51,039 nt of DNA from Candidatus Giovannonibacteria bacterium RIFCSPLOWO2_12_FULL_44_15 (GTDB lineage: Bacteria; Patescibacteriota; Minisyncoccia; JACPKW01; UBA11713). The notes under the pieces were generated by a model that worked only from the letters and a program-made list of their open reading frames with translations, did not search any database and was not told where the DNA came from. Position 1 is the first letter of the stretch, and each line of letters starts with the position of its first letter. The translations under genes and the position numbers were made by a program. Shown in pieces: positions 2,329 to 25,343 of this stretch. The stretch lies in assembly GCA_001778905.1 (NCBI GenBank), contig MFIQ01000001.1, positions 9,539 to 60,577 on the forward strand, given 5' to 3'.

Positions 2329-3405
2329 ATGAAAGGATTTGATTTTCCAGTTTTCAAGACAAAGACCACAGGGGTAACGGAAAAATTTTCTTTGGAGGAT
2401 CCGGTTGGGCGCCGGAAATATTTCGAGGCGAAGGCTGGGCCGGAGATAGAAAAATTGAGAGATTATCTGCGAACGGGCACTTTCGTGGCATTTTTGCTCG
2501 GCCCGAAAAATTCTGGAAAGGGCACCTACACAAAGCTTTTTATGGAAGCTTTGGGCGACGATAGAGCTGGGCATATCTCCGTGGGAGATGTTGTTCGCGG
2601 CGCCCACAAAGACCTAGAGAACGATAAATCTAAGAAAGAGCTTATGCAATTTCTAAAAGAGAGGTATAGGGGCGGTGCTTCTCCAGAAGAAATTATCGAA
2701 CTTATACGAAGCTGGGGGGTATCAAACCCACTTCTCCCGACAGAAGCAATTTTGGCCTTGGTGGAACGCGAAATTTCAAAACTTGGCCGCAAAGCCATTT
2801 TTATAGACGGTTTCCCTAGGAGCCTGGACCAAATCTCAAACGCACTATACTTCCGCGCGCTAATGGGATATCGTAGTGATCCAGACTTTTTTGTTTTTAT
2901 TGACGTGCCGGAATCGGTGATAGACGAAAGGATTAAATACCGAGTCATCTGTCCCATTTGCCACACGCCGAGAAATTTAAAACTTCTTCGCACAAAAGAT
3001 ATTAAATATGATAAAGAGAGCAAAAACTTCCAACTTCTTTGCGACGACACATCTTGCAAAGGCGCGGTTATGGTTCCGAAAGAAGGGGATGAGCTCGGGA
3101 TTGAACCAATTCGTGACAGAATCGAGGCTGACAGAGAAGTCATGAAAACCCTCTTGGATTTTCATGGCATTGATAAGATTTATCTTCGTAATAGCGTTCC
3201 AGTTGATAAGGCCCAGGAATATGTAGATGATTACGAGCTCACGCCAGCATATAGTTACAAATGGGATGTGAAAAAAGGCGAAGTTATTGTGGAAGAGAGT
3301 CACTGGACGGTAAAAGATGAATCCGGTACGGAAGTGTATAGCCTTCTTCCTGCGGCCGTAGTTTTAGCTTTAATTAAGCAAGTTGCCAAAGTCCTTGGTT
3401 TGTAG
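2329..3405 (+). CDS. Adenylate-kinase-like nucleoside monophosphate kinase, atypically long (358 aa)
   Basis: It has a P-loop (LLGPKNSGKGTY), an NMP-binding/LID junction (FIDGFPRSLDQ) and a Cys-containing LID (VICPICH...CDDTSCKG). Extensions of about 50 aa (N-terminal) and about 90 aa (C-terminal) are absent from classical Adk. Confidence 0.6.
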   Translation: MKGFDFPVFKTKTTGVTEKFSLEDPVGRRKYFEAKAGPEIEKLRDYLRTGTFVAFLLGPKNSGKGTYTKLFMEALGDDRAGHISVGDVVRGAHKDLENDKSKKELMQFLKERYRGGASPEEIIELIRSWGVSNPLLPTEAILALVEREISKLGRKAIFIDGFPRSLDQISNALYFRALMGYRSDPDFFVFIDVPESVIDERIKYRVICPICHTPRNLKLLRTKDIKYDKESKNFQLLCDDTSCKGAVMVPKEGDELGIEPIRDRIEADREVMKTLLDFHGIDKIYLRNSVPVDKAQEYVDDYELTPAYSYKWDVKKGEVIVEESHWTVKDESGTEVYSLLPAAVVLALIKQVAKVLGL

Positions 3406-12179: not shown

Positions 12180-14471
12180 ATGGAAACTTTTGTTGAAAAA
12201 AAGACAAGGACCCTCTCTCATATTGAACTTACTCAAATCAAAAAGCGCGATGGGACCGTTGTTCCGTTTGACTTGGCTCGGATCAAAAATGCGATTATGC
12301 GCGCTTTCGAATCAACAAAAGAAGGAGGAGAAGAAGAGGCGAGGCTGGTGGCGTTTCGCGTTTATGACATATTAAGGCAGATGAAATTGACCAGCCCTCA
12401 ATTTGTGCCCTCAGTCGAACAAATTCAGGATCTGGTAGAAAAAGAACTTATCTTGGATAAATTTGCAGTAACCGCTAAGTCGTACATTCTTTATCGCGAA
12501 AAACATGCCGAGATGCGGAGAGAAGCGGGACCGGTATCCGAGCGCCTGCGCGCCCTTGCCAAAGAGAGCAAAAAATATTTTAGAAATCCTCTCGCGGAAT
12601 TCATATATTACAGATCATACGCCAGATGGGTAGAGACAGAAGGAAGAAGGGAAACGTGGATTGAAACAGTGGATAGATATATGAGCTTTATGAAAGAAAA
12701 GTTGGCTGGCGCACTGACGGAGAACGAATATTCGGACGTCCGGGAGGCCATTTTGAAACACGAAGCTATGCCTTCTATGCGCTTACTCCAGTTCGCGGGG
12801 CTTGCCGCCAAGGCAACCAACGTTTGTGCCTATAATTGCTCCTTTATAGCCCCCAGATCCTTCCAGGATTTCGCCGAAATTATGTATATTTCTATGTGCG
12901 GAACGGGGGTAGGGTGGTCTGTTGAGAGCGAAAATATCCAGTCTTTGCCTCAAGTAAAGAGGCAAAGCGGCAAAAAGCTCTCGGCCTATGTCATTCCGGA
13001 CAGCAAGGAGGGGTGGGCGGACGCTTTCTCCTTCGGGCTCAAGACTTGGTTTGATGGAGAGGATGTAGAATTTGATTACTCAAAGTTGCGTCCCGCGGGC
13101 GCACGTTTAAAGACGATGGGAGGCAAGAGTTCGGGTCCCGAACCGCTGAGGAATCTTTTGGAATTTTCCAGAGAGCGAATTTTAAAAAGGCAGGGAAGGC
13201 GCCTTTCCAATATCGATGCCCACGATATCATCTGCAAGATAGGAGATTGTGTCGTTTCGGGCGGAGTCAGGAGAAGCGCCATGATTTCACTTTCGGATTT
13301 GGAAGACGAAGAGATTCGCGATTCGAAGAAAGGGCAATTTTATGTGAATGATCCTCAGCGCAGTTTAGCGAATAACTCCGCTGTCTATTGGCAGAGGCCG
13401 ACTACAAAAGAATTTTTGGACGAGTGGACAGCCTTGATTAAAAGCGGAAGCGGGGAGCGCGGAATTTTTAACCGCGGTGGGCTTGCAAAAACTCTTCCGG
13501 AGCGTAGGCTCGAACAATTTGGGGGCATCCATCCTTCTTGGGGAACAAACCCATGCGGAGAGATTGTCTTGCAATCGAAACAATTCTGCAATCTTACCGA
13601 AGTCGTCGCGAGGGAAAATGATACCGAGGAAACCCTTTTGAGAAAAGCAAGAATTGCGACGATACTCGGGACCTACCAATCTACGCTGACTTATTTTCCA
13701 TACCTTTCGAAAGAATGGCAGGAGAACTGCGAGCAAGAGAGGCTGCTCGGCGTATCGATTACTGGCCAATGGGATTCGCCTGCGGTGCGCGATGAAGCGG
13801 TTTTAAAGAAAATAAAGGATATGGTGATTAAAACCAATAAAGAATACGCGGCTAAATTCGGAGTCAGCCAATCGACCTGTACAACCTGCGTTAAGCCATC
13901 TGGAACCGTCTCCCAACTCGTAGACTGTTCCTCCGGCATGCATCCCAGGCACGCGCAATACTATGTCCGACGTGTCCGCATCTCCGCGACAGACTCCCTA
14001 TTTAAGATGCTAAAGGACCAGGGCGTGCCTTTTTATCCGGAAGTGGGGCAGACTATGGAGAGCGCTTCCACATTTGTCTTGGAATTTCCGATTAAAGCCC
14101 CCGAAGGCAAGATTTTCCGCGACAATCTTACGGCGATGGACCAATTAAAGCATTGGAAAATGGTCAAAGAAGGATACACGGAGCACAATCCGTCGGTGAC
14201 GGTTTCGGTAGGGGACGACGAATGGGTGGCCGTTGCCAACTGGCTTTACGAGAATTGGGATATCGTAGGCGGGCTTTCTTTCCTGCCCCGATTGAACCAC
14301 GTCTACCGCTTGGCTCCATATGAAGCAATAAAAAAAGAGGAATACGAGGAGCGCGCCAAGAAATTGGAACACATTGATTTTTCCAAAATCTATACGTACG
14401 AGATCGAAGACGAAACGGAAGTGAAAAAGGAACTCGCCTGCGTCGCGGGAGTTTGCGAAATAGAAATGTAA
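12180..14471 (+). CDS. nrdJ: Adenosylcobalamin-dependent (class II) ribonucleotide reductase with N-terminal ATP-cone
   Basis: It has an ATP-cone (IKKRDGTVVPFDLARIKNAI) and the class II active-site region WGTNPCGEIVLQSKQFCNLTEV. At 763 aa it is the size of the monomeric type. Confidence 0.9.
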   Translation: METFVEKKTRTLSHIELTQIKKRDGTVVPFDLARIKNAIMRAFESTKEGGEEEARLVAFRVYDILRQMKLTSPQFVPSVEQIQDLVEKELILDKFAVTAKSYILYREKHAEMRREAGPVSERLRALAKESKKYFRNPLAEFIYYRSYARWVETEGRRETWIETVDRYMSFMKEKLAGALTENEYSDVREAILKHEAMPSMRLLQFAGLAAKATNVCAYNCSFIAPRSFQDFAEIMYISMCGTGVGWSVESENIQSLPQVKRQSGKKLSAYVIPDSKEGWADAFSFGLKTWFDGEDVEFDYSKLRPAGARLKTMGGKSSGPEPLRNLLEFSRERILKRQGRRLSNIDAHDIICKIGDCVVSGGVRRSAMISLSDLEDEEIRDSKKGQFYVNDPQRSLANNSAVYWQRPTTKEFLDEWTALIKSGSGERGIFNRGGLAKTLPERRLEQFGGIHPSWGTNPCGEIVLQSKQFCNLTEVVARENDTEETLLRKARIATILGTYQSTLTYFPYLSKEWQENCEQERLLGVSITGQWDSPAVRDEAVLKKIKDMVIKTNKEYAAKFGVSQSTCTTCVKPSGTVSQLVDCSSGMHPRHAQYYVRRVRISATDSLFKMLKDQGVPFYPEVGQTMESASTFVLEFPIKAPEGKIFRDNLTAMDQLKHWKMVKEGYTEHNPSVTVSVGDDEWVAVANWLYENWDIVGGLSFLPRLNHVYRLAPYEAIKKEEYEERAKKLEHIDFSKIYTYEIEDETEVKKELACVAGVCEIEM

Positions 14472-15013
14472 TGTATTGGACTGGAAAAGGAGATGACGGG
14501 ACGACGAAATTATTTAACTCGCCGCCTGGTTGCCGTATTCCAAAAAGTTCTCGGGTAGTCAAGGCGTTGGGCTCTCTCGATGAAGTAAATTCGTATTTAG
14601 GATTGGCGAAAGCGCTCGCTCGCGAGCAAAAACTAGATCTCGAATCTTTCGTAAATTTTTTACAGGAACAACTTTTTATATTACAAGCCGAGCTTGCTGG
14701 AGCAGAAAAGACAGTTTCAAAGGAATCTCTAGAGAAAATGGAATCGAATTTGCATATTTTCTCGCAAAATATTCCCGAGATTAAATCTTTCTCGATTCCC
14801 GGAGGAACGGTTCTCTCGGCGCATTTTGATGTAGCAAGGACGATGGCGAGGCGAGCCGAGAGGGAAGTTGTTGCGCTAAGGGATGACAAAGAAAAAGCGC
14901 TCGGCGAGAAAAGCTACGCATTTTTAAACCGCCTTTCTAGCGCGTGCTTCATCTTGGCGAGATATGTAAATTCGGTCCAAGGCGTGGCTGAAACCCCACC
15001 GAGTTATAACTAA
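14471..15013 (+). CDS. PduO-type ATP:cob(I)alamin adenosyltransferase
   Basis: MYWTGKGDDGTTKLF ... LGSLDEVNSYLGLA ... FSIPGG matches the PduO-type ATR pattern (TG.GD.G.T.L ... DELNS.IG ... FILPGG). The start is taken at ATG 14471, overlapping the nrdJ stop (TAATG). The longer ORF starts at 14453. Confidence 0.85.
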   Translation: MYWTGKGDDGTTKLFNSPPGCRIPKSSRVVKALGSLDEVNSYLGLAKALAREQKLDLESFVNFLQEQLFILQAELAGAEKTVSKESLEKMESNLHIFSQNIPEIKSFSIPGGTVLSAHFDVARTMARRAEREVVALRDDKEKALGEKSYAFLNRLSSACFILARYVNSVQGVAETPPSYN

Positions 15014-15844: not shown

Positions 15845-16159
15845 TGGTGGAGATGGCGGGAGTTGAACCCGCGTCAGGAAAGCTTTTGAGGGATGGTTGA
15901 CAAGCTTAGGTGAAATCCTGAATTAACTCTCAGGAAAAAAGTTTTCTCGCTTATGACACCCGCGATCCCGTAGCGAGAATCAAGGACGGATGGCTCCGAC
16001 GCGAGGTCGGAGCGTTGCCATTAAGCTACTGCCAAGGCAGGCTCTCTGGTTCCAAATAAGTTTGCACTTATTATGTTCCCATGGGAGATATTTAGCTCCG
16101 CCATGGCGGAGCGCCTGAACATCATCTCAAAGTTCTTCCCCTCGAGGCCTATCATCCCC
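15845..16159 (-). ncRNA. ssrA: tmRNA (SsrA), one-piece
   Basis: The minus-strand 5' end GGGGAUG pairs with the 3' CAUCUCC-ACCA, including the G3:U alanine identity pair. The T-arm is GCGGGUUCAACUCCCGC. The resume codon GCA at 16065 opens the tag reading frame ANLFGTREPALAVA followed by UAA (16065..16021). It lies directly downstream of smpB. Confidence 0.9.
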
Positions 16160-16595
16160 GTAGGTTGCGGCCGACTTCGCGCTCGATGTCGCGTTTTTTT
16201 ATTTTGTCGCGTTTTTCGTACTTCTTCTTTCCGCGGACAATTGCGATCTCGATCTTAATTCGGCCGCTTGTAGTATACACCTTTATTGGGATGATTGTCA
16301 ACCCGCGCTTCTCGGCATTTCCTGCGAGAGAGGCTATCTCTTTCTTGTGGAGCAAGAGTTTTCTAGTTCGTTCGCGCACGTACCCCTCAGGCGTATTATT
16401 CGGCTGATAGGGAGGTATATCCATGCCGACGAGAAATGCTTCGTCCCCGCGGATTAAAACGCGTGCCCCGGAAATATTTCCATTTTTATTTTTAAGCGAT
16501 TTTACCTCGAGTCCCAGCAATGATAAACCCGCCTCGAATTTCTCAAGGATTTCATAGTTGAAATATGCTTTTTTGTTTTCGAGCAGGGCGGGCAT
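16152..16595 (-). CDS. smpB: SsrA-binding protein SmpB
   Basis: NKKAYFNYEILEKFEAGLSLLGLEVKSL ... LLLHKKEI ... GLTIIPIKVY is the canonical SmpB sequence pattern. Confidence 0.95.
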   Translation of the reverse strand: MPALLENKKAYFNYEILEKFEAGLSLLGLEVKSLKNKNGNISGARVLIRGDEAFLVGMDIPPYQPNNTPEGYVRERTRKLLLHKKEIASLAGNAEKRGLTIIPIKVYTTSGRIKIEIAIVRGKKKYEKRDKIKKRDIEREVGRNLRG

Positions 16596-19364: not shown

Positions 19365-19395
19365 TATAGGCAAGAAACTCATAATCTTGCCTATA
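19365..19395. promoter_or_regulatory. Perfect 11-bp inverted repeat in the ileS leader (candidate operator or RNA hairpin)
   Basis: TATAGGCAAGA (19365-19375), spacer AACTCATAA, then TCTTGCCTATA (19385-19395). It lies 28 nt upstream of the ileS ATG at 19423. A possible -35 TTGTCA sits at 19355-19360. Confidence 0.5.
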
Positions 19396-19422
19396 AGACA
19401 GCATTTGCTAGACTTTACCTAT

Positions 19423-22400
19423 ATGGCCGATGAGAAAGGCTTTCCAATGTATGGTTCCGTTTCTCCTCGCTCTGAAGAGGAGATTCTTCGTTTTTGGAAA
19501 GATAATAAAATATTCGAGAAGTCTCTGGAGTCCAGGAAAAAAGAGAAGAAATTCGTCTTTTTTGAAGGCCCTCCTTATGCCAACGGTATTCCCGGGATTC
19601 ACCACGTAGAATCGCGCTCGTTTAAGGATATTATTTTACGCTACAAGACCATGCGCGGATTTTTTGTACCGCGCAGAGCGGGATGGGATACGCACGGCCT
19701 TCCGACGGAAATGGCGGTTGAAAAAGCGCTCGGTATAAAATCGAAAAGGGAAATCGAGGAGAAAATCGGCGTTGAAAAATTTGTTGAAGAGGCGAAGAAA
19801 AATGTTTTCACGTTCATAGACGCTTGGGAAAAATTGACCGACCGCATGGCATACTGGCTCGATTTGAAAAATGCCTATGTGACGATGACCAATAATTATA
19901 TTGAATCTCTCTGGGCTGTCATTTCCGAAATTTCCAAAAAAAAATTGCTTTATGAAGATTATAAAGTTCTACCGTGGTGCCCGCGCTGTGGAACATCGCT
20001 TTCTTCGCACGAATTGGCGCAGGGGTACCAGAAAGTAAAAGAAAATTCGATTTATGTTAAGTTCCAACTTGCAGGCGATAAGTCGCAAAATCAGCGGGTA
20101 AGTTGTCTAGTTTGGACGACAACTCCATGGACGCTTCCCGGAAACGTAGCGCTCGCGGTAAATCCAAAAATAGATTATGTGACGATAGAACGCGCCGATA
20201 ATTCCGGTGAGTGGCTGATTTTGGCCGAATCTCGTCTTGGCGTAATCGAGGGAGAGTACAAAATTATCAATCGCGAGAAGGGCGCCGCGCTAGTCGGAAC
20301 AAAATACAAGGCTTTATATCCTTATCCTGCTGCGACGGAAAATAGTTATTGCGTTGTCGCGGCCAGTTTTGTATCAACCGAGGACGGCTCGGGAATAGTC
20401 CATATAGCGCCCGCTTTCGGGGGAGACGACTTAGCGGTTGGGAAAAAAGAAAAGTTGCTGACGCTCGTAACTGTAACGGAGGAAGGAAAAATGAATACTC
20501 CGGGTGCTACGTGGGATGGAAAATTCATCAAAGACGCGAACCAACTAATATGCGAAGATTTAAAAAATCGCTCGCTTTTATTCAGTGTCGCTTCTTATGA
20601 ACACGATTATCCTTTCTGCTGGCGGTGCGGCACGGCTTTGATGTACTACGCGAAGACTTCCTGGTTTTTCAAAACTACGGCCGTCCGCGATCATATGCTT
20701 CAGGAAAACAAGAAAATTAGTTGGCGCCCGGAATACTTGCGGGACGGCCGCTTTGGAAGCTGGCTTAAAGAAAATGTTGATTGGGGAATTTCCCGCGAGC
20801 GTTATTGGGGGACTCCGTTGCCGGTTTGGAGATGCGGGAAGTGTAAAAATATAAAAGTTGTTGGATCATTGGAAGAACTTGATGAAGCAAATCCAAGCGC
20901 CGCAAGCATAATTTTCATGCGACATGGCGAAGCATTGCATAATATCAAAAACAGAGTAAATCCATTTTCTCCTGAAAATGACAGCAAAGATGAACTTACT
21001 GAAAAAGGGAGAAGGGATGTTATCGCTTCGGCAGAGAAGCTCAAAAAGGAGAACATAGAAGTCATTGTTTCTTCGCCATCAGCTCGCGCTAAAGAAACTG
21101 CTGAGATAGTTGGCAACATTTTGGGTATTAAAAATATCGAAATAATCCCTGAACTGTACGATGTTATGATTGGAAAGTTTGAGGGGGAGCCCATTAGTGA
21201 GTTCAAAAAGGAGTTTTCAAATTTTGAGGAGCGTTTTACAAAAAAACCCGGTGGAGCGGAAAATTCGCGGGAGCTGAGAAAACGCGTGATGAAAGCCCTT
21301 GGAGAGGTGAGAGTGAAATGCGCTGGCAAGAAAGTTTTGGTTGTGAGCCATGGGGATCCAATTTGGGTTGCAATCGCTACATTGGAAGGACTCAAGGAAA
21401 AAGGCTACAAAGAATCTTTTTACCCAAGCCCCGCGGAATTCAAAAAAATTAAATTGCACAACTGGCCGTATAATCCGGCGGGTGAACTAGATCTTCATAA
21501 GCCGTATATAGACGAAATAAAATTGAAATGCGAAAAGTGTTCGGGCGAGATGGCGCGCGTGAAAGAAGTTGTAGATGTCTGGTTTGATTCCGGAGCGATG
21601 CCGTTTGCCTCGCAAGGCTGGCCCTTCGACTCCGCTCAGGGCAAGCCGCCTGCATTGTATCCGGCTGAATATATTTCCGAGGCGATCGACCAGACGCGGG
21701 GGTGGTTTTATACATTGCTCGCGGTCTCATCGCTTTTGGGATTGAAATCATCATTCAAGCGGGTTTTGTCGCTTGGTTTGGTGTTGGATGAGAAGGGCGA
21801 GAAAATGTCGAAATCAAAAGGAAACGTTGTCGATCCGCAAATGCTTATGGAAAAATATGGGGCGGATGCGGTCAGATGGTATTTTTATACTATCAATCAG
21901 CCTTGGGACGACAAGCTTTTTCGCGAGAAGGACATTCAGGATGCCCAAAGGCGTTTCCTTATGATTCTATGGAATTCGTTTGTGTATTGGCGAACTTACG
22001 GCGCAAAATCAAAAGGCAAAAGTCAAAATGCAAAATTAATTATAAACAAATGGCTTCTTTCAAAATGGAACGAAGTTTTAAGTGAGGTTGAGAAAAAGTT
22101 AGATGCATATGATATTGTTTCGGCCGCACGTGCGCTTGAAAATTTTGTTGTTGAAGATTTGTCGCATTGGTATATCAGGCGGATCCGCGAACATATGAAA
22201 CACGAGAAATCGGAAGCGGCGAAAGAATGTTCGGCAACTCTCGGTTTCGTTTTACTAGAGCTTTCAAAAGCTTTAGCTCCTTTTGTGCCTTTTATTTCCG
22301 AAGGGATTTACAAAAGTTTAGAAGGCAATCACGAGAGCGTGCATCTGGAGGATTTTCCCGCCTTCGCCAAGGCTTCGGCGGGCAAGCCCGAAGAAAAAAT

Positions 22401-22911
22401 TATTAAAGAAATGGAGGTGGTGCGAGAGATAGTTTCGAAAGGCTTGGAGGCACGGCAGAAAGCGGGGATTAAGATCAGACAGCCGTTGTCAGATTTACGA
22501 TTTAAGATTTACGATTTAGGAGATAAAGAGCTTTTGGACTTGATTAAAGGGGAAGTGAATATAAAAAGCGCGATTTTCGATAAAAATCTTAAAGACGACG
22601 TTGAGCTCAATACGGAAATTACGGATGAACTCCGCGAGGAGGGTTTTGTTCGCGAATTTGTGCGGGCTGTTCAGGATTTCAGAAAAGAATTAAAACTGAC
22701 TCCGCAGGAGAAAGTAGAGTTGTCCGCGAAAGGGAAGAAAGAGTTCGAAAAAATTCTCACCAAGCATGAATTGCTCATCAAAAAGGAGATAAACATTTCC
22801 GATTTATTGATAGGTAAGACTGCAGGCAATGCGAAAGAAATTTCCCTCGACGGCGAGAAACTAGAAATAGGAATCAATCACACACATCATCTAAAAATAG
22901 AAAATGCCTGA
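19423..22911 (+). CDS. ileS: Isoleucyl-tRNA synthetase with an inserted histidine-phosphatase-like domain
   Basis: PPYANG...(GIHH), the editing domain (TTTPWTLPGN, GSGIVHIAPAFG), WCISRQ-like DWGISRERYWG, DQTRGWFY and KMSKSKGN are all present. The ORF is open from a TTG at 19387, and the first ATG is at 19423. See the separate feature for the insertion. Confidence 0.95.
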   Translation: MADEKGFPMYGSVSPRSEEEILRFWKDNKIFEKSLESRKKEKKFVFFEGPPYANGIPGIHHVESRSFKDIILRYKTMRGFFVPRRAGWDTHGLPTEMAVEKALGIKSKREIEEKIGVEKFVEEAKKNVFTFIDAWEKLTDRMAYWLDLKNAYVTMTNNYIESLWAVISEISKKKLLYEDYKVLPWCPRCGTSLSSHELAQGYQKVKENSIYVKFQLAGDKSQNQRVSCLVWTTTPWTLPGNVALAVNPKIDYVTIERADNSGEWLILAESRLGVIEGEYKIINREKGAALVGTKYKALYPYPAATENSYCVVAASFVSTEDGSGIVHIAPAFGGDDLAVGKKEKLLTLVTVTEEGKMNTPGATWDGKFIKDANQLICEDLKNRSLLFSVASYEHDYPFCWRCGTALMYYAKTSWFFKTTAVRDHMLQENKKISWRPEYLRDGRFGSWLKENVDWGISRERYWGTPLPVWRCGKCKNIKVVGSLEELDEANPSAASIIFMRHGEALHNIKNRVNPFSPENDSKDELTEKGRRDVIASAEKLKKENIEVIVSSPSARAKETAEIVGNILGIKNIEIIPELYDVMIGKFEGEPISEFKKEFSNFEERFTKKPGGAENSRELRKRVMKALGEVRVKCAGKKVLVVSHGDPIWVAIATLEGLKEKGYKESFYPSPAEFKKIKLHNWPYNPAGELDLHKPYIDEIKLKCEKCSGEMARVKEVVDVWFDSGAMPFASQGWPFDSAQGKPPALYPAEYISEAIDQTRGWFYTLLAVSSLLGLKSSFKRVLSLGLVLDEKGEKMSKSKGNVVDPQMLMEKYGADAVRWYFYTINQPWDDKLFREKDIQDAQRRFLMILWNSFVYWRTYGAKSKGKSQNAKLIINKWLLSKWNEVLSEVEKKLDAYDIVSAARALENFVVEDLSHWYIRRIREHMKHEKSEAAKECSATLGFVLLELSKALAPFVPFISEGIYKSLEGNHESVHLEDFPAFAKASAGKPEEKIIKEMEVVREIVSKGLEARQKAGIKIRQPLSDLRFKIYDLGDKELLDLIKGEVNIKSAIFDKNLKDDVELNTEITDELREEGFVREFVRAVQDFRKELKLTPQEKVELSAKGKKEFEKILTKHELLIKKEINISDLLIGKTAGNAKEISLDGEKLEIGINHTHHLKIENA
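20899..21471 (+). other. Histidine phosphatase superfamily (branch 1, dPGM/CobC/SixA-like) domain inserted in-frame in IleRS
   Basis: Residues about 505-695 of the ORF (numbered from 19387) carry IIFMRHGEALHN, LTEKGRRD, SSPSARAKETAE, IGKFEGE and VVSHGD. The insertion lies between WRCGKC (20827-20844) and KCEKC (21526-21540), the two halves of the IleRS zinc knuckle. Confidence 0.75.
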
Positions 22912-24640
22912 AACTCGATCCTGCCAAAACTGCAAACAAAACTTTGCAATCGAACCGGAGGATTTTAAGTTTTATGAAAAAATTTCTGTCCCGCCGCCGA
23001 CATTTTGCCCAAAATGCAGAATGACGCGGCGTATGCGTTTTGGCAATCACTTAAATATGTATAAAAGAAGGGATGATTTAGGTAATAAGGAAATACTATC
23101 AGTTTATGACAAAGACGTCCCCTTCCTAATTTATAAAGCCGAAGATTGGTGGTCTGACAAATGGGACCCAATGCAATTTGGTAAGGAATATGATTTTGCT
23201 ATTCCATTTTTTTCTCAATTTCTGGCTCTTTATCGCAGCGTACCGCAAATGAATCTTGTAAATATTAATTCAGTTAACTGCAATTACTGTCCTAAAATAA
23301 TGAACGCAAAAAATTGTTATCTTTCTATTGGGTTGGGAATAGAAAATTGTATTTATGGCTACTACTCGCGATATTCTAAAGATTCTATTAGTTATTTCAA
23401 TTTGAATCTTTCCGAGAAATGCTACGAGTGCGTTGATTGTTATAAATGTAATTCTCTTTTTTTCTCGCAGGACTGTGTCGAATGTTATGACTCAAAATTT
23501 CTAATAGATTGCCGAAATTGCCACGATTGTTTTGGATGCGTTAATTTACGAAATAAATCATTCTGTATATTAAATAAACAATATACGAAAGAAGAATATA
23601 AAGAAATAATTAATGAATATGATTTCGGGAGCAACGAAGGTATTAAACAAGCAATAGAAAAACTTAACAATCTTAAAGTTCACTTACCGAGACGCTACTC
23701 TATTTTAAATAAATGCGCTAATGTCACAGGAAATCACTTGTCAAATTCTATCAATTCATTTGATTGTTTTGACATCTCCGAAGATAGTAGCTTGGAAAGA
23801 GTTAAATATGGAATTATTGGAAGCTCTATGAGAGATTGTTATGATTTTTTTACTGGCGGAGAAGACATTGAATTATCGGCAGAATTCATGCTGACCGTTG
23901 GAGGCAGTAATAACTTCGCAACCATTAATGTTCCTGAATCGCATAATGTTAAATATTCTATTGATTGTTATAACTCGAGTAATTTGATTGGATGTGTTGG
24001 CCTGCGTAAAAAAGAATATTGTATTCTCAATAAACAATTTACCAAAGAAGAATACGAAGAGCTCATTCCAAAAATCATCCAGCATATGAAAGATATACCA
24101 TACATAGATAATAAGAAAAGAGTTTATGCGTACGGCGAATTTTTTCCGGAGGAATTTTCTCCTTTTGCATATAATGAAACCGTTGCCCAAGAAAATTACC
24201 CTTTAACAAAGGGGCAGGCGCTTGATATGGGATATTCTTGGAAAGATTCAGAAAAAAGAAATTATCAAATTAGTGTGAAATCTCAGGATCTCCCAGATCA
24301 TATCCGGGATGCAAAAGATGATATTTTAAATCATATAATTGGATGTGAACATGAAGGAAAATGCAACGAGCAATGCACAGAAGCATTTAGAATTATTTCC
24401 CAAGAACTCGATTTTTATCGAAAGCAAAATTTTCCCTTGCCACGACTCTGTCCTAACTGTCGCCATCACCAAAGGCAGAAACAACGCAATCCCTTAAAAC
24501 TCTGGCATCGCGCGTGCATGTGCGAGTTGGAAAACCATGGGCACGATGGAAAATGCCCCAACGAATTTGAAACTTCATATTCTCCGGAAAGGCTAGAAAT
24601 TATTTATTGCGAGAGTTGTTATAACAAAGAAGTCGCATAA
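22904..24640 (+). CDS. Cysteine-rich (multi zinc-ribbon-like) protein of unknown function, 578 aa
   Basis: The start ATG overlaps the ileS stop (ATGCCTGA). The N-terminal module CQNC...FKFYEKISVPPPTFCPKCRMTRRMRFGNHL recurs near the C-terminus as FRIISQELDFYRKQNFPLPRLCPNCRHHQRQKQRNPL. The central region has two homologous Cys-rich lobes, ending FGCVNLRNKSFCILNKQYTKEEYKE and IGCVGLRKKEYCILNKQFTKEEYEE. Confidence 0.7.
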   Translation: MPETRSCQNCKQNFAIEPEDFKFYEKISVPPPTFCPKCRMTRRMRFGNHLNMYKRRDDLGNKEILSVYDKDVPFLIYKAEDWWSDKWDPMQFGKEYDFAIPFFSQFLALYRSVPQMNLVNINSVNCNYCPKIMNAKNCYLSIGLGIENCIYGYYSRYSKDSISYFNLNLSEKCYECVDCYKCNSLFFSQDCVECYDSKFLIDCRNCHDCFGCVNLRNKSFCILNKQYTKEEYKEIINEYDFGSNEGIKQAIEKLNNLKVHLPRRYSILNKCANVTGNHLSNSINSFDCFDISEDSSLERVKYGIIGSSMRDCYDFFTGGEDIELSAEFMLTVGGSNNFATINVPESHNVKYSIDCYNSSNLIGCVGLRKKEYCILNKQFTKEEYEELIPKIIQHMKDIPYIDNKKRVYAYGEFFPEEFSPFAYNETVAQENYPLTKGQALDMGYSWKDSEKRNYQISVKSQDLPDHIRDAKDDILNHIIGCEHEGKCNEQCTEAFRIISQELDFYRKQNFPLPRLCPNCRHHQRQKQRNPLKLWHRACMCELENHGHDGKCPNEFETSYSPERLEIIYCESCYNKEVA

Positions 24641-24651
24641 TTTATATTCAC

Positions 24652-24679
24652 TTGACACATATCCTATATGATATACAAT
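24652..24679 (+). promoter_or_regulatory. Candidate sigma70-type promoter for the toxin-antitoxin pair
   Basis: -35 TTGACA (24652-24657), a 16-nt spacer, then -10 TACAAT (24674-24679). It overlaps the first ATG of the higB-like ORF (24668). If the promoter is used, the real start may be the in-frame GTG at 24701. Confidence 0.4.
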
Positions 24680-25048
24680 GAAGATGGATCTAGTTATAAG
24701 GTGAAGTTTTACCTTGATATAAAAAGTGGCCGTAGTCCAGTCAAAGATTATATCGACAAACTCAATGATAGAGAAAGAGCGAAAGTATTGAAATATATTG
24801 AGTTTCTTCGCGAAAATAAGGGCGTTCTCGACGAACCGTATTCAAAACATATCAATGGCAAAGTTAGAGAGCTTCGAGTTGACTTTGCGCGACAGCACCA
24901 TAGAATTTTTTACTTTATTTTTGTCGGACGAAATATCATTTTGCTCCACGCTTTTTTGAAGAAAACTCCGAAGACCCCGACTGGCGAAATAAAAAGAGCA
25001 GAGGAGCGTTATAAAAATGTAATATCCAATCAAAAACTCTATGAATAA
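24668..25048 (+). CDS. higB: RelE/ParE-superfamily toxin, HigB / phage Gp49-like
   Basis: PVKDYIDKL...RAKVLKYIEFL ... KHINGKVRELRVDF...HRIFYF...NIILLHAFLKKTPKTPTGEIKRAEERY is the Gp49/HigB-type pattern. It overlaps the downstream HTH gene by 8 nt. Confidence 0.75.
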   Translation: MIYNEDGSSYKVKFYLDIKSGRSPVKDYIDKLNDRERAKVLKYIEFLRENKGVLDEPYSKHINGKVRELRVDFARQHHRIFYFIFVGRNIILLHAFLKKTPKTPTGEIKRAEERYKNVISNQKLYE

Positions 25049-25343
25049 ATCAAAAAAACAATACAAAGTAGTAGATTTTCAAAAATATCTCGCGAGCGAG
25101 CTTAAAAATCCAAAGATACGAAAATATTACAATGAATACGGCAAGCAACTAGAAATTGCGTATCAGATTTTATTGTTGCGCAAACAGGAAGGCATTTCCC
25201 AGTCCGAACTCGCGCAAAAAATCGGCACTACTCAAAGCAATATTGCTCGCATGGAGCAAGGTAAGCAAAACTTTACCACGGAAACACTTCAAAAAATTGC
25301 CTCAGCGCTTAGGCATGATTTGAAAGTAGAATTTGTAAAATAA
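25041..25343 (+). CDS. higA: XRE-family helix-turn-helix antitoxin (HigA-like)
   Basis: It carries the HTH LLRKQEGISQSELAQKIGTTQSNIARMEQGKQNFTTETLQKIASAL. Confidence 0.8.
   Translation: MNKSKKQYKVVDFQKYLASELKNPKIRKYYNEYGKQLEIAYQILLLRKQEGISQSELAQKIGTTQSNIARMEQGKQNFTTETLQKIASALRHDLKVEFVK

What the first reader, a model, noticed from the sequence alone, without database searches (positions are those of the whole stretch)
20899..21471. Isoleucyl-tRNA synthetase carries an inserted, apparently intact histidine-phosphatase domain inside its zinc knuckle
In IleRS sequences as I recall them (for example the Thermus type), the two CxxC halves of the zinc knuckle are a few tens of residues apart. Here WRCGKC (20827-20844) and KCEKC (21526-21540) are about 230 residues apart. 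The extra 190 aa or so contain every signature of histidine phosphatase superfamily branch 1 (dPGM, CobC, SixA, PhoE). These are IIFMRHGEALHN (catalytic RHG), LTEKGRRD, SSPSARAKETAE, IGKFEGE and VVSHGD (second catalytic His). The insertion is in frame, has no stops and uses the same codon style as its flanks. The synthetase and editing motifs on both sides are intact. It therefore looks like a functional fusion by domain insertion rather than decay. I know of no described aaRS with a phosphatase embedded in its catalytic body. Possible roles are pure speculation: acting on a phosphorylated nucleotide or tRNA end, Ap4A or alarmone turnover, or alpha-ribazole-phosphate-type chemistry given the B12 salvage genes nearby.
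Basis: partly seen in the sequence, partly recalled or inferred. Interest (0 to 1): 0.85.

Follow-up and report, generated by a model that had tools for sequence, protein, structure and literature searches.

The report
Phosphatase domain embedded inside isoleucyl-tRNA synthetase
The isoleucyl-tRNA synthetase in this window really does carry a complete, apparently active histidine-phosphatase domain spliced into one of its zinc-binding loops; the same build is conserved across a whole group of ultra-small (CPR) bacteria and recurs in their valyl-tRNA synthetases, but I found no paper describing it and its substrate is unknown.

Summary
ORF 19387-22911 (+; likely start 19447) encodes a type-2 IleRS (TIGR00392, 861 bits against a cutoff of 621). 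A His_Phos_1 domain (PF00300, E 1.7e-32) occupies residues about 505-690. It lies in the loop between C483xxC486 and C715xxC718, which is about 45 residues long in solved IleRS2 structures.

It is not an artefact. Of the 120 closest full-length homologues (47-100% identity, Paceibacteria), 119 carry the same insertion. R512, H513, R567, E625 and H655 are essentially invariant, and position 592 is always Glu or Asp. One close relative (P0195, 61% identity, same synteny) lacks the domain cleanly, so aminoacylation does not need it.

The isolated domain models as a complete PhoE/CobC-like small-molecule phosphatase (pLDDT 94). The phenomenon is wider than the finding:
- 73 of 120 ValRS homologues from Peregrinibacteria/Gracilibacteria carry 1-4 such domains, mostly in the equivalent loop.
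- Some IleRS carry 2-3 copies at other loops, or GNAT or P-loop-kinase inserts.

The held literature contains no description of this.

Best reading: an active accessory phosphomonoesterase tethered to a housekeeping editing synthetase, acting on a small phosphorylated compound. AMP or another nucleotide is my guess; the substrate is unproven. The B12/alpha-ribazole idea is not supported.

The parts
19387..22911 (+). ileS gene: type-2 isoleucyl-tRNA synthetase with the embedded phosphatase. The ORF begins at TTG 19387; the probable real start is ATG 19447.
   Evidence: TIGR00392 ileS, 861 bits against a cutoff of 621. Best solved relatives are P. megaterium IleRS2 (8c8w) and T. thermophilus 1ile. 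P0121 is 100% identical and starts at M21. An RBS-like GAGAAAGG lies upstream of 19447.
19594..19605 (+). Class I signature motif in its non-canonical form GIHH (GXHH instead of HXGH), residues 70-73.
   Evidence: Sequence. G70, H72 and H73 are at least 90% conserved in the clade. GXHH is the mupirocin hyper-resistance motif of IleRS2 described in PMC10485003.
19978..20628 (+). First zinc knuckle (C198xxC201 and C411xxC414), which brackets the CP1 editing domain containing TTTPWTLP (residues 244-251).
   Evidence: All four Cys and W243-W248 are invariant in 119 sequences. The editing-domain fragments of T. thermophilus IleRS (1wk8, 1ue0) align to residues 213-409.
20833..20844 (+). First half of the second zinc knuckle, C483-G-K-C486.
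   Evidence: C483 and C486 are invariant in 121 of 121 sequences. In the model the flanking strands are E480-483 and E489-491.
20899..21456 (+). Inserted histidine-phosphatase (His_Phos_1, branch 1) domain, residues about 505-690. The Pfam envelope is residues 508-676 (nt 20908-21414).
   Evidence: PF00300, E 1.7e-32. AF2 pLDDT is 92-97 in the full-length model and 94.2 alone. Foldseek TM is 0.79-0.85 to ~200-aa phosphatases. The family profile hits PhoE 1ebb/1h2e at E 1.5e-28.
20920..20928 (+). R512-H513-G514: phosphate-binding Arg and the nucleophilic His.
   Evidence: R and H are present in 120 of 120 insertion-bearing sequences. They align to RHG of PhoE.
21085..21087 (+). R567, the second phosphate-binding Arg (SSPSAR).
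   Evidence: Present in 120 of 120 sequences. It aligns to the Arg of 'STSGRALETAE' in PhoE.
21160..21162 (+). D592, the probable general acid/base.
   Evidence: This column is Glu in 64 and Asp in 56 of 120 sequences. It aligns to the Glu of 'LREI' in PhoE.
21259..21261 (+). E625 of the conserved P-x-G-E motif.
   Evidence: Present in 119 of 120 sequences.
21349..21351 (+). H655 (VVSHGD), the second catalytic His.
   Evidence: Present in 120 of 120 sequences. It aligns to THG of PhoE.
21529..21540 (+). Second half of the second zinc knuckle, C715-E-K-C718.
   Evidence: Invariant in 121 of 121 sequences.
21574..21816 (+). Second half of the Rossmann fold: DVWFDSG (730-736), DQTRGWF (768-774) and KMSKS (806-810).
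   Evidence: Motif positions. D730, W732, G736, D768, T770-G772, K806 and K809 are invariant; M807, S808 and S810 are at least 90% conserved.
22045..22878 (+). Anticodon-binding domain (residues 887-1035) and type-2 C-terminal domain (DUF5915, residues 1072-1164).
   Evidence: PF08264, E 9e-33, and PF19302, E 1.5e-16.

Best explanation
The gene encodes the organism's housekeeping type-2 IleRS. The distal loop of its second (CP3-type) zinc knuckle has acquired a complete PhoE/CobC-like histidine phosphatase.

The synthetase part works as usual: Ile activation, transfer to tRNA-Ile and CP1 editing.

The inserted domain is a catalytically competent phosphomonoesterase.
- H513 attacks the phosphate and forms a phospho-histidine intermediate.
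- R512, R567, H655 and N519 form the phosphate pocket.
- D592 (Glu or Asp in orthologues) protonates the leaving group.

The domain is an accessory. Aminoacylation does not need it, but it is kept under purifying selection and is tethered to the synthetase.

Its fold, including the cap sub-domain, points to a small phosphorylated molecule as substrate rather than a macromolecule. My committed guess is a nucleotide monophosphate such as the AMP released by aminoacylation and by editing.

What is shown: the architecture, the borders, the conservation, the fold and the dispensability. What is inferred: that the domain is active, that its substrate is a small molecule, and the AMP/nucleotide guess, which taken alone deserves only about 0.15-0.2. 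The stated confidence of 0.55 applies to the general statement (an active accessory small-molecule phosphomonoesterase tethered to a functional housekeeping IleRS).
For: - Profile and family hits support both halves: His_Phos_1 at E 1.7e-32 and IleRS above the curated cutoff.
- Borders are defined against solved IleRS2 structures.
- 119 of the 120 best homologues carry the insert.
- R512, H513, R567 and H655 are present in 120 of 120 sequences, E625 in 119 of 120 and N519 in 100 of 120. Position 592 is always Glu or Asp. Overall insert identity is only 39%, against 53-66% for the synthetase core.
- Models are confident: full length pLDDT 90.2 and pTM 0.84; insert alone pLDDT 94.2.
- The best structural and sequence neighbours are ~200-aa small-molecule phosphatases: PhoE, the phosphoserine phosphatase of Hydrogenobacter thermophilus (4ij5/4ij6), GpgP, HFP and CobC.
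- P0195 is 61% identical, has the same GIHH motif and the same argS-ileS-recO synteny, and lacks the domain cleanly.
- The same domain sits in the topologically equivalent loop of ValRS in 73 of 120 Peregrini/Gracilibacteria homologues, and 88 of 90 of those domains keep RH[GAS]. This argues that selection favours pairing this phosphatase with IleRS and ValRS, the two most closely related editing synthetases.
- LeuRS, MetRS and ArgRS in the same window have no insert.
Against: - No activity or substrate was tested.
- Related proteins carry the domain at several different loops and in 2-4 copies. That fits generic tethering better than precise substrate channelling.
- Dephosphorylating AMP would be wasteful for an organism that probably cannot make purines.
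- The domain falls below the cutoff of every curated functional equivalog, so no specificity can be transferred by homology.
Confidence: 0.55

Rival explanations
1. Hitch-hiking enzyme. The phosphatase performs an unrelated housekeeping or metabolic dephosphorylation. It is embedded in an abundant essential protein only for guaranteed co-expression in a minimal genome, with no mechanistic link to aminoacylation.
For: - The domain is found at several different loops and in 1-4 copies.
- Other unrelated domains (GNAT, AAA_18 P-loop kinase, IS200-like Y1_Tnp, DUF559, HU) are also found inserted in, or fused to, CPR IleRS and ValRS. This suggests that these proteins tolerate added domains generally.
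- The domain can be lost cleanly.
- Close standalone-size relatives of ~190 aa exist.
Against: - The same domain type recurs at the same topological loop in two paralogous synthetases in different CPR classes.
- LeuRS, MetRS and ArgRS of this window lack it.
- 119 of the 120 closest homologues retain it.
Confidence: 0.2
2. tRNA end-healing. The domain removes a 3'- or 2'-phosphate from damaged tRNA acceptor ends, for example after nuclease or toxin attack, so that the tRNA can be repaired and charged on the same enzyme.
For: - The host proteins bind the tRNA 3' end.
- The insertion lies in the connective-peptide region of the catalytic domain.
- The best NCBIfam hit of the insert is the phosphatase half of the 'bifunctional RNase H/acid phosphatase' family.
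- One relative combines the phosphatase with a P-loop kinase whose weak PDB hits include Pnkp1 (E 0.055).
Against: - The fold retains the cap sub-domain typical of small-molecule enzymes.
- Surface charge is not consistently basic. IleRS inserts have a median pI of 9.3, but so do standalone-size relatives (9.1), while ValRS inserts are acidic (5.8).
- To my knowledge, no histidine phosphatase is known as an RNA 3'-phosphatase.
- The kinase match is not significant.
Confidence: 0.12
3. Cis-acting protein phosphatase. The domain removes regulatory or toxin-installed phosphates from the synthetase itself, for example on the KMSKS loop. HipA and HipT kinases phosphorylate GltX and TrpS in this way.
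For: - Several insertion sites in relatives cluster in the second half of the Rossmann fold, near KMSKS.
- From my own knowledge, some branch-1 members (SixA, PGAM5, Sts-1) are protein phosphatases.
- A toxin-antitoxin pair lies just downstream in this window.
Against: - Multiple tandem copies, and sites in CP2 and in the anticodon-binding domain, do not fit a fixed cis geometry.
- The SixA model scores below its cutoff.
- No kinase partner was identified.
Confidence: 0.06
4. Non-catalytic module. The conserved pocket only binds a phosphate group, either of a metabolite acting as an allosteric signal or of the tRNA 5'-phosphate or backbone.
For: - The insert evolves faster than the synthetase core.
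- Pseudo-enzymes that keep their binding residues are known in many families.
Against: The nucleophile His, both Arg, the second His and also the general acid (always Glu or Asp) are retained in 120 of 120 sequences, and 88 of 90 ValRS-embedded copies keep the RH[GAS] motif. Simple binding would not need the acid.
Confidence: 0.06
5. Artefact: a chimeric assembly, a frameshifted fusion of two genes, or an intein-like selfish element.
For: None, beyond the unusual length of the protein.
Against: - The reading frame is uninterrupted.
- The same architecture appears in more than 100 independently assembled homologues, on contigs up to 837 kb.
- A 100%-identical protein exists on another contig.
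- Composition is ameliorated.
- Pfam finds no Hint, intein or homing-endonuclease domain.
- The residues at the junctions are not conserved in the intein pattern.
Confidence: 0.01

Closest known systems
Type-2 (eukaryote-like, mupirocin-resistant) bacterial IleRS, e.g. Priestia megaterium IleRS2 (8c8u/8c8w) and Thermus thermophilus IleRS (1ile)
   Same: - Same overall fold (Foldseek TM 0.83-0.93 on the target).
- Same domain order, both zinc knuckles, the editing motifs, KMSKS and the type-2 C-terminal domain.
- The GXHH variant of the HIGH motif is the one described for hyper-resistant IleRS2.
   Different: The loop between the two CxxC pairs of the second knuckle holds about 45 residues in those enzymes. 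Here it holds a whole 185-190-residue phosphatase.
PhoE (YhfR) of Geobacillus stearothermophilus and related ~200-aa branch-1 histidine phosphatases (CobC, the H. thermophilus phosphoserine phosphatase 4ij5/4ij6, GpgP, HFP)
   Same: - Same fold, with TM about 0.8-0.85.
- The best sequence hit of the family profile, E 1.5e-28, with RHG, Arg, Glu and His aligned.
- Similar size, including the cap region.
   Different: - Those are free-standing enzymes, whereas this one is nested in a synthetase loop.
- It scores below the curated cutoff of every functional equivalog (CobC, dPGM, PspA, SixA), so its substrate cannot be inferred.
- The loop after RHG is atypically long.
IleRS with an inserted GNAT domain (NCBIfam NF040702, ileS_w_GNAT) and other synthetases with accessory catalytic domains
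   Same: It sets a precedent that an IleRS can carry an extra enzymatic domain and still be curated as an isoleucine--tRNA ligase. One CPR relative here (P0330) carries both a His_Phos and a GNAT insert.
   Different: - The domain type is different.
- The window protein scores 318 bits against a cutoff of 1999 for that family.
- I did not determine where the GNAT sits in NF040702 members.
Bifunctional RNase H / acid phosphatase (NF005567, Rv2228c type)
   Same: It is the best NCBIfam hit of the insert (E 1.6e-21). It also pairs a histidine phosphatase with a nucleic-acid enzyme.
   Different: It is an end-to-end fusion rather than a nested insertion. The score is 77 against a cutoff of 326, so the window protein is not a member.

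Membership tests
Isoleucine--tRNA ligase (TIGR00392 equivalog) | Whole-protein score above the curated cutoff | tested here: met
   861.3 bits against a cutoff of 621.4. The match is split into two stretches around the insert.
Isoleucine--tRNA ligase (class Ia) | HIGH and KMSKS signature motifs, plus the CP1 editing motifs | tested here: met
   KMSKS is at residues 806-810 and TTTPWTLP at 244-251; both are conserved. HIGH is present as the known non-canonical IleRS2 variant GIHH.
Type-2 IleRS (IleRS2) | Closest to IleRS2 structures; type-2 C-terminal domain without a C-terminal zinc-binding domain | tested here: met
   Best PDB hits are 8c8w/8c8u/1ile at about E 1e-234, against about 1e-95 for IleRS1. 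DUF5915 is present at residues 1072-1164.
MupA/MupB acquired mupirocin-resistance IleRS (NF000257/NF000258) | Score above the curated cutoff of 1900 | tested here: not met
   751 and 771 bits.
ileS_w_GNAT (NF040702) | Score above the curated cutoff of 1999; GNAT domain present | tested here: not met
   318 bits. There is no GNAT hit in the window protein.
Histidine phosphatase superfamily, branch 1 (PF00300) | Profile score above the gathering threshold | tested here: met
   113.1 bits against 21.7, E 1.7e-32, covering profile positions 1-168 of 194.
Histidine phosphatase superfamily, branch 1 | Catalytic set: RHG nucleophile motif, second Arg, general acid, second His | tested here: met
   R512, H513, R567, D592 and H655 are present, align to the PhoE residues and are conserved in 120 homologues.
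Histidine phosphatase superfamily, branch 1 | Phosphatase activity through a phospho-histidine intermediate | not testable with these tools
   This needs enzymology.
Alpha-ribazole phosphatase CobC (TIGR03162) | Score above the curated cutoff; cobalamin lower-ligand genes in the genomic context | tested here: not met
   65.5 (whole protein) and 69.6 (excised domain) bits against 162.9. The window has only a class II RNR and a PduO-type adenosyltransferase, with no cobS, cobT or cobU.
Cofactor-dependent phosphoglycerate mutase (NF038349, TIGR01258) | Score above the curated cutoff | tested here: not met
   71-73 bits against 225, and 25 bits against 81.7.
Phosphohistidine phosphatase SixA (TIGR00249) | Score above the curated cutoff; minimal fold without a cap | tested here: not met
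   34.6 (whole protein) and 39.1 (excised domain) bits against 74.5, and only the N-terminal half aligns. The model matches full-size ~200-aa enzymes.
Intein / homing element | Hint domain and conserved splice-junction residues | tested here: not met
   Pfam gives no Hint, intein or LAGLIDADG hit. Junction columns are variable. The fold is His_Phos.

The most novel reading that the evidence does not exclude
The embedded phosphatase is mechanistically coupled to the synthetase. It acts on a product or substrate of the IleRS/ValRS reaction: clearing AMP generated by aminoacylation and editing, or healing phosphorylated tRNA 3' ends. Its placement in the CP3 knuckle loop would then be functional. 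CPR bacteria would thus have evolved, more than once, a new class of bifunctional editing synthetase.
Probability: 0.3. Interest if true: 0.85.

Novelty: new variant of a known kind. Interest (0 to 1): 0.72.

Why it matters
Aminoacyl-tRNA synthetases are among the best-studied enzymes, and their accessory domains often reveal new biology such as editing, signalling or resistance. I found no report of a catalytically intact phosphatase nested in the catalytic body of IleRS.

Three features make this hard to dismiss as a one-off curiosity:
- It is conserved across a whole class of CPR bacteria.
- It recurs at the equivalent loop of ValRS in another CPR class.
- It is sometimes multiplied to 2-4 copies.

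If the phosphatase is coupled to aminoacylation, it defines a new type of bifunctional synthetase. It could also say something about nucleotide economy or tRNA repair in organisms with minimal genomes. If it is uncoupled, it is still a clear natural example of permissive domain-insertion sites in class Ia synthetases, which is useful for protein engineering.

The clean natural deletion (P0195) and the invariant H513 give ready-made controls for experiments.

Tried and rejected
- **Locus search with the insert alone.** The search for related loci with the insert-only alignment failed because no stretch was conserved enough. Only 10 insertion-bearing genomes were recovered, so no proper taxonomic census is possible.
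- **Geometry.** The structure tool returns no coordinates. I therefore could not measure the distance or orientation between H513 and the synthetic or editing sites.
- **Surface charge as a test for RNA binding.** This was not discriminating. IleRS inserts have a median pI of 9.3, standalone-size relatives 9.1 and ValRS inserts 5.8.
- **Co-inserted kinase and GNAT of relatives.** Characterising them to infer a pathway was inconclusive. The kinase gives only weak, generic P-loop small-molecule-kinase hits (APS kinase, shikimate kinase, Pnkp1; E 0.02-0.06), and the GNAT is generic.
- **B12/alpha-ribazole idea.** Rejected: the domain is below the CobC cutoff and no cobS, cobT or cobU is nearby.
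- **Intein or selfish-element idea.** Rejected.
- **Neighbour-joining tree of the domains.** The tree is rough, with long branches and no support values. I use it only for the point that the ValRS-embedded copies sampled group apart from the IleRS knuckle copies.
- **Literature.** Nine searches and three targeted paper reads found nothing on this architecture. The library lacks most subscription-journal papers, so absence is not proof.
- **Second ileS.** I did not test whether genomes with the insert also have a second ileS, because only one genome-collection scan was allowed.
Full report
**1. The observation**

The window holds one uninterrupted ORF, 19387-22911 on the + strand, of 1174 codons.
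- NCBIfam identifies it as isoleucine--tRNA ligase: TIGR00392, 861 bits against a cutoff of 621.
- Pfam finds, besides the class I catalytic, anticodon-binding and DUF5915 domains, a His_Phos_1 domain (PF00300) at residues 508-676. Its E-value is 1.7e-32 (113 bits against a cutoff of 21.7). The excised segment 20899-21471 alone gives E 5.8e-34.

The two CxxC pairs, C483/C486 and C715/C718, are 232 residues apart. Against solved structures, the protein aligns best to type-2 IleRS: P. megaterium IleRS2 (8c8w) and T. thermophilus 1ile, at about E 1e-234. Query residues 27-499 match chain residues 11-475, and query 682 onward matches chain 468 onward. About 185-190 residues are therefore pure insertion in a loop that is otherwise about 45 residues long.

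The insert's GC3 is 0.41, against 0.47 for the rest of the gene. It lies within the range seen along the gene (0.39-0.55), and its codon preferences correlate with the rest (r = 0.64). It therefore looks old and ameliorated.

The real start is probably ATG 19447.

**2. It is not an artefact, and it is clade-wide**

A search with the full protein returned 120 best homologues at 47-100% identity and 986-1217 aa. Of these, 119 carry PF00133 plus PF00300.
- They come from many independent assemblies, on contigs up to 837 kb.
- Their sources name them Giovannonibacteria, Niyogibacteria, Tagabacteria and Parcubacteria.
- Fragments from Colwellbacteria and Paceibacterota show the same junction.

Ten genomes of the GTDB set also have the insert in IleRS. 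They include Yanofskybacteria, Spechtbacterales, Minisyncoccia, Paceibacteria and one Peregrinibacteria genome.

The closest named relative is a Giovannonibacteria protein at 68% identity. Gene order argS-ileS-recO-DUF11 protein-class II synthetase is conserved in these relatives. This fits a housekeeping ileS.

**3. The domain looks catalytically alive**

Conservation across 120 insertion-bearing sequences:

| Residue | Conservation |
|---|---|
| R512, H513, R567, H655 | 120 of 120 |
| E625, R633 | 119 of 120 |
| G514 | 117 of 120 |
| N519 | 100 of 120 |
| Position 592 | Glu in 64, Asp in 56 |

The four knuckle cysteines are invariant.

A profile of the inserts hits PhoE of G. stearothermophilus best (E 1.5e-28). 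RHG, the second Arg, the 'LREI' Glu (D592 here) and the 'SHG' His are all aligned.

The insert evolves faster than the synthetase core. Mean pairwise identity is 0.39, against 0.53-0.66 for the core and 0.40 for the C-terminal tRNA-binding domain. The strict retention of the catalytic set is therefore the result of selection, not of recent ancestry.

**4. Structure**

- AlphaFold2 on the 119-sequence alignment gives a confident full-length model: pLDDT 90.2, pTM 0.84, and 92-97 across the insert.
- The knuckle strands (480-483, 489-491, 712-714, 721-724) flank a complete alpha/beta domain.
- The whole model superposes on IleRS2 structures with TM 0.83-0.93 relative to the target. No solved synthetase has the extra domain.
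- The insert alone models at pLDDT 94.2.
- It matches ~200-aa small-molecule phosphatases at TM 0.79-0.85: GpgP (Rv2419c), the H. thermophilus phosphoserine phosphatase, PhoE, the riboflavin-pathway HFP and CobC.
- It falls below the curated cutoff of every functional equivalog, namely CobC, dPGM, PspA and SixA. No substrate can be transferred by homology.

**5. It is dispensable for aminoacylation**

P0195 (940 aa) is 60.6% identical to the window protein, closer than most insertion-bearing homologues. It has the same GIHH motif and lies in the same argS...ileS-recO synteny. Its knuckle loop reads ...KVVGSIDE-LGIKDE-IDLHRPYID... with no phosphatase. This is most simply a secondary clean loss. 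It shows that the synthetase works without the domain.

**6. The phenomenon is broader than the finding**

An exhaustive search with the insert found 480 representative clusters at E below 1e-10. Many are 1100-1200 aa long with the domain at about residues 480-700.

Variants in related proteins:
- IleRS with two or three phosphatase domains. These sit in the knuckle, just after the second CxxC, between 'MPYA' and 'DQTRGWF', and at the start of the anticodon-binding domain.
- An IleRS with a phosphatase plus an AAA_18 P-loop kinase.
- An IleRS with an IS200-like domain in the editing domain, plus a phosphatase and a GNAT.
- ValRS with two or four phosphatase domains.

A search with one such ValRS showed that 73 of its 120 best homologues carry 1-4 His_Phos domains.
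- Their sources name them Peregrinibacteria and Gracilibacteria.
- Most inserts lie in the loop between WCISRQ...IPVW and DTWFSS, the topological equivalent of the IleRS knuckle.
- 88 of 90 domains keep RH[GAS].

A Nomurabacteria (Paceibacteria) ValRS has no insert. In this window, LeuRS (825 aa), MetRS (514 aa) and ArgRS (484 aa) have none either. In a rough neighbour-joining tree, the ValRS-embedded copies sampled group apart from the IleRS knuckle copies.

**7. Mechanism**

Shown:
- An intact type-2 IleRS.
- A complete histidine-phosphatase fold in its CP3-type knuckle loop.
- An invariant catalytic set.
- The domain is dispensable.
- The same domain recurs at the equivalent site of ValRS.

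Inferred:
- The domain is an active phosphomonoesterase, with H513 as nucleophile, D592 as general acid, and R512, R567, H655 and N519 forming the phosphate pocket.
- It acts on a small phosphorylated compound.

My best guess at the substrate is a nucleotide monophosphate such as the AMP that IleRS and ValRS release in aminoacylation and, in excess, in editing. This is weakly supported.

Rivals:
- A hitch-hiking, mechanistically unrelated phosphatase. It is favoured by the multiple sites and copies and by the other inserted domains.
- tRNA 3'/2'-phosphate end healing.
- A cis-acting protein phosphatase.
- A non-catalytic phosphate sensor.

Surface charge did not discriminate between these. The co-inserted kinase and GNAT of relatives are generic. 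The alpha-ribazole idea has no support. The nearby 'B12' genes are a class II ribonucleotide reductase and a PduO-type adenosyltransferase. No cobS, cobT or cobU is present, and the CobC model is not met.

**8. Novelty**

Nine full-text searches found no description of a histidine phosphatase embedded in a synthetase. Neither did targeted reading of the 2023 IleRS2 hyper-resistance paper, a 2026 preprint on IleRS domain evolution and a 2024 yeast IleRS-tRNA structure paper.

The sequences themselves have long been public. Pipelines label them 'class I tRNA ligase family protein', or even 'histidine phosphatase family protein, partial'. Synthetases with accessory domains are a known kind, and NCBIfam even curates an IleRS with a GNAT domain. 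I therefore class this as a new variant of a known kind, not as categorically new. The held library lacks most subscription-journal papers, so a prior description cannot be excluded.

**9. Verdict**

The feature is more general, and more interesting, than a single odd gene. The function of the phosphatase remains open. Interest 0.72.

Noticed in passing
window 19594-19605 (residues 70-73 of IleRS): The class I HIGH signature is the non-canonical GIHH (GXHH). PMC10485003 links this motif to mupirocin hyper-resistance in IleRS2. It is conserved through the insertion-bearing clade and also in the insertion-less P0195. Multi-insert IleRS from other lineages have the canonical HYGH.
   Followed up: partly
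window 22904-24640 (+): A 578-aa, very cysteine-rich ORF with many CxxC pairs has no Pfam or NCBIfam hit. Its start overlaps the ileS stop by 8 nt. It is absent from the syntenic ileS-recO interval of ten related genomes, so it looks like a lineage-specific insertion together with the toxin-antitoxin pair that follows it.
   Followed up: partly
window 24668-25343 (+): A HigB-like toxin (Gp49/DUF891) and an HTH_3 antitoxin gene overlap by 8 nt and lie between ileS and recO.
   Followed up: no
P0330, P0325, P0413/P0494, P0463 (relatives, not in the window): Other domains are found inserted in, or fused to, CPR IleRS and ValRS. Where I read the sequence, the position is clear: an IS200-like Y1 transposase domain inside the editing domain plus a GNAT after 'MPYA' (P0330), and an AAA_18 P-loop kinase (P0325). 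For DUF559 (PF04480) and an HU-like domain (PF00216) in ValRS, I saw only the precomputed Pfam lists and did not determine where they sit. The surface loops of class Ia synthetases seem to tolerate added domains in these bacteria.
   Followed up: partly
P0195 / L081 7539-10361: A close relative (61% identity, same synteny) lacks the phosphatase cleanly, leaving only 'LGIKDE' in the loop. It is a natural deletion control. Its locus also has a reverse-transcriptase gene just upstream of ileS.
   Followed up: partly
P0393 and P0504: An IleRS with two phosphatase inserts and an insert-free ValRS both list a longest contig of exactly 439,541 bp (ENA). They may therefore come from one genome. This hints that a genome may carry the phosphatase on only one of the two synthetases.
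   Followed up: no
window 2329-3405 (+): An adenylate-kinase-like ORF of 358 aa is much longer than the usual ~190-215 aa and scores below every curated adk cutoff. It may carry an N-terminal extension or internal insertions.
   Followed up: no
window 12180-15013 (+): A class II (B12-dependent) ribonucleotide reductase with an ATP-cone is followed by a PduO-type cob(I)alamin adenosyltransferase, whose ORF overlaps the reductase's 3' end by 19 nt.
   Followed up: partly
window 15845-16595 (-): A tmRNA gene (tag peptide ANLFGTREPALAVA) lies directly next to smpB.
   Followed up: no
window 20802-21395 (-): A 197-aa antisense ORF lies entirely inside the phosphatase-coding segment. It is most likely a by-product of the codon composition of the sense strand, not a gene.
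   Followed up: no
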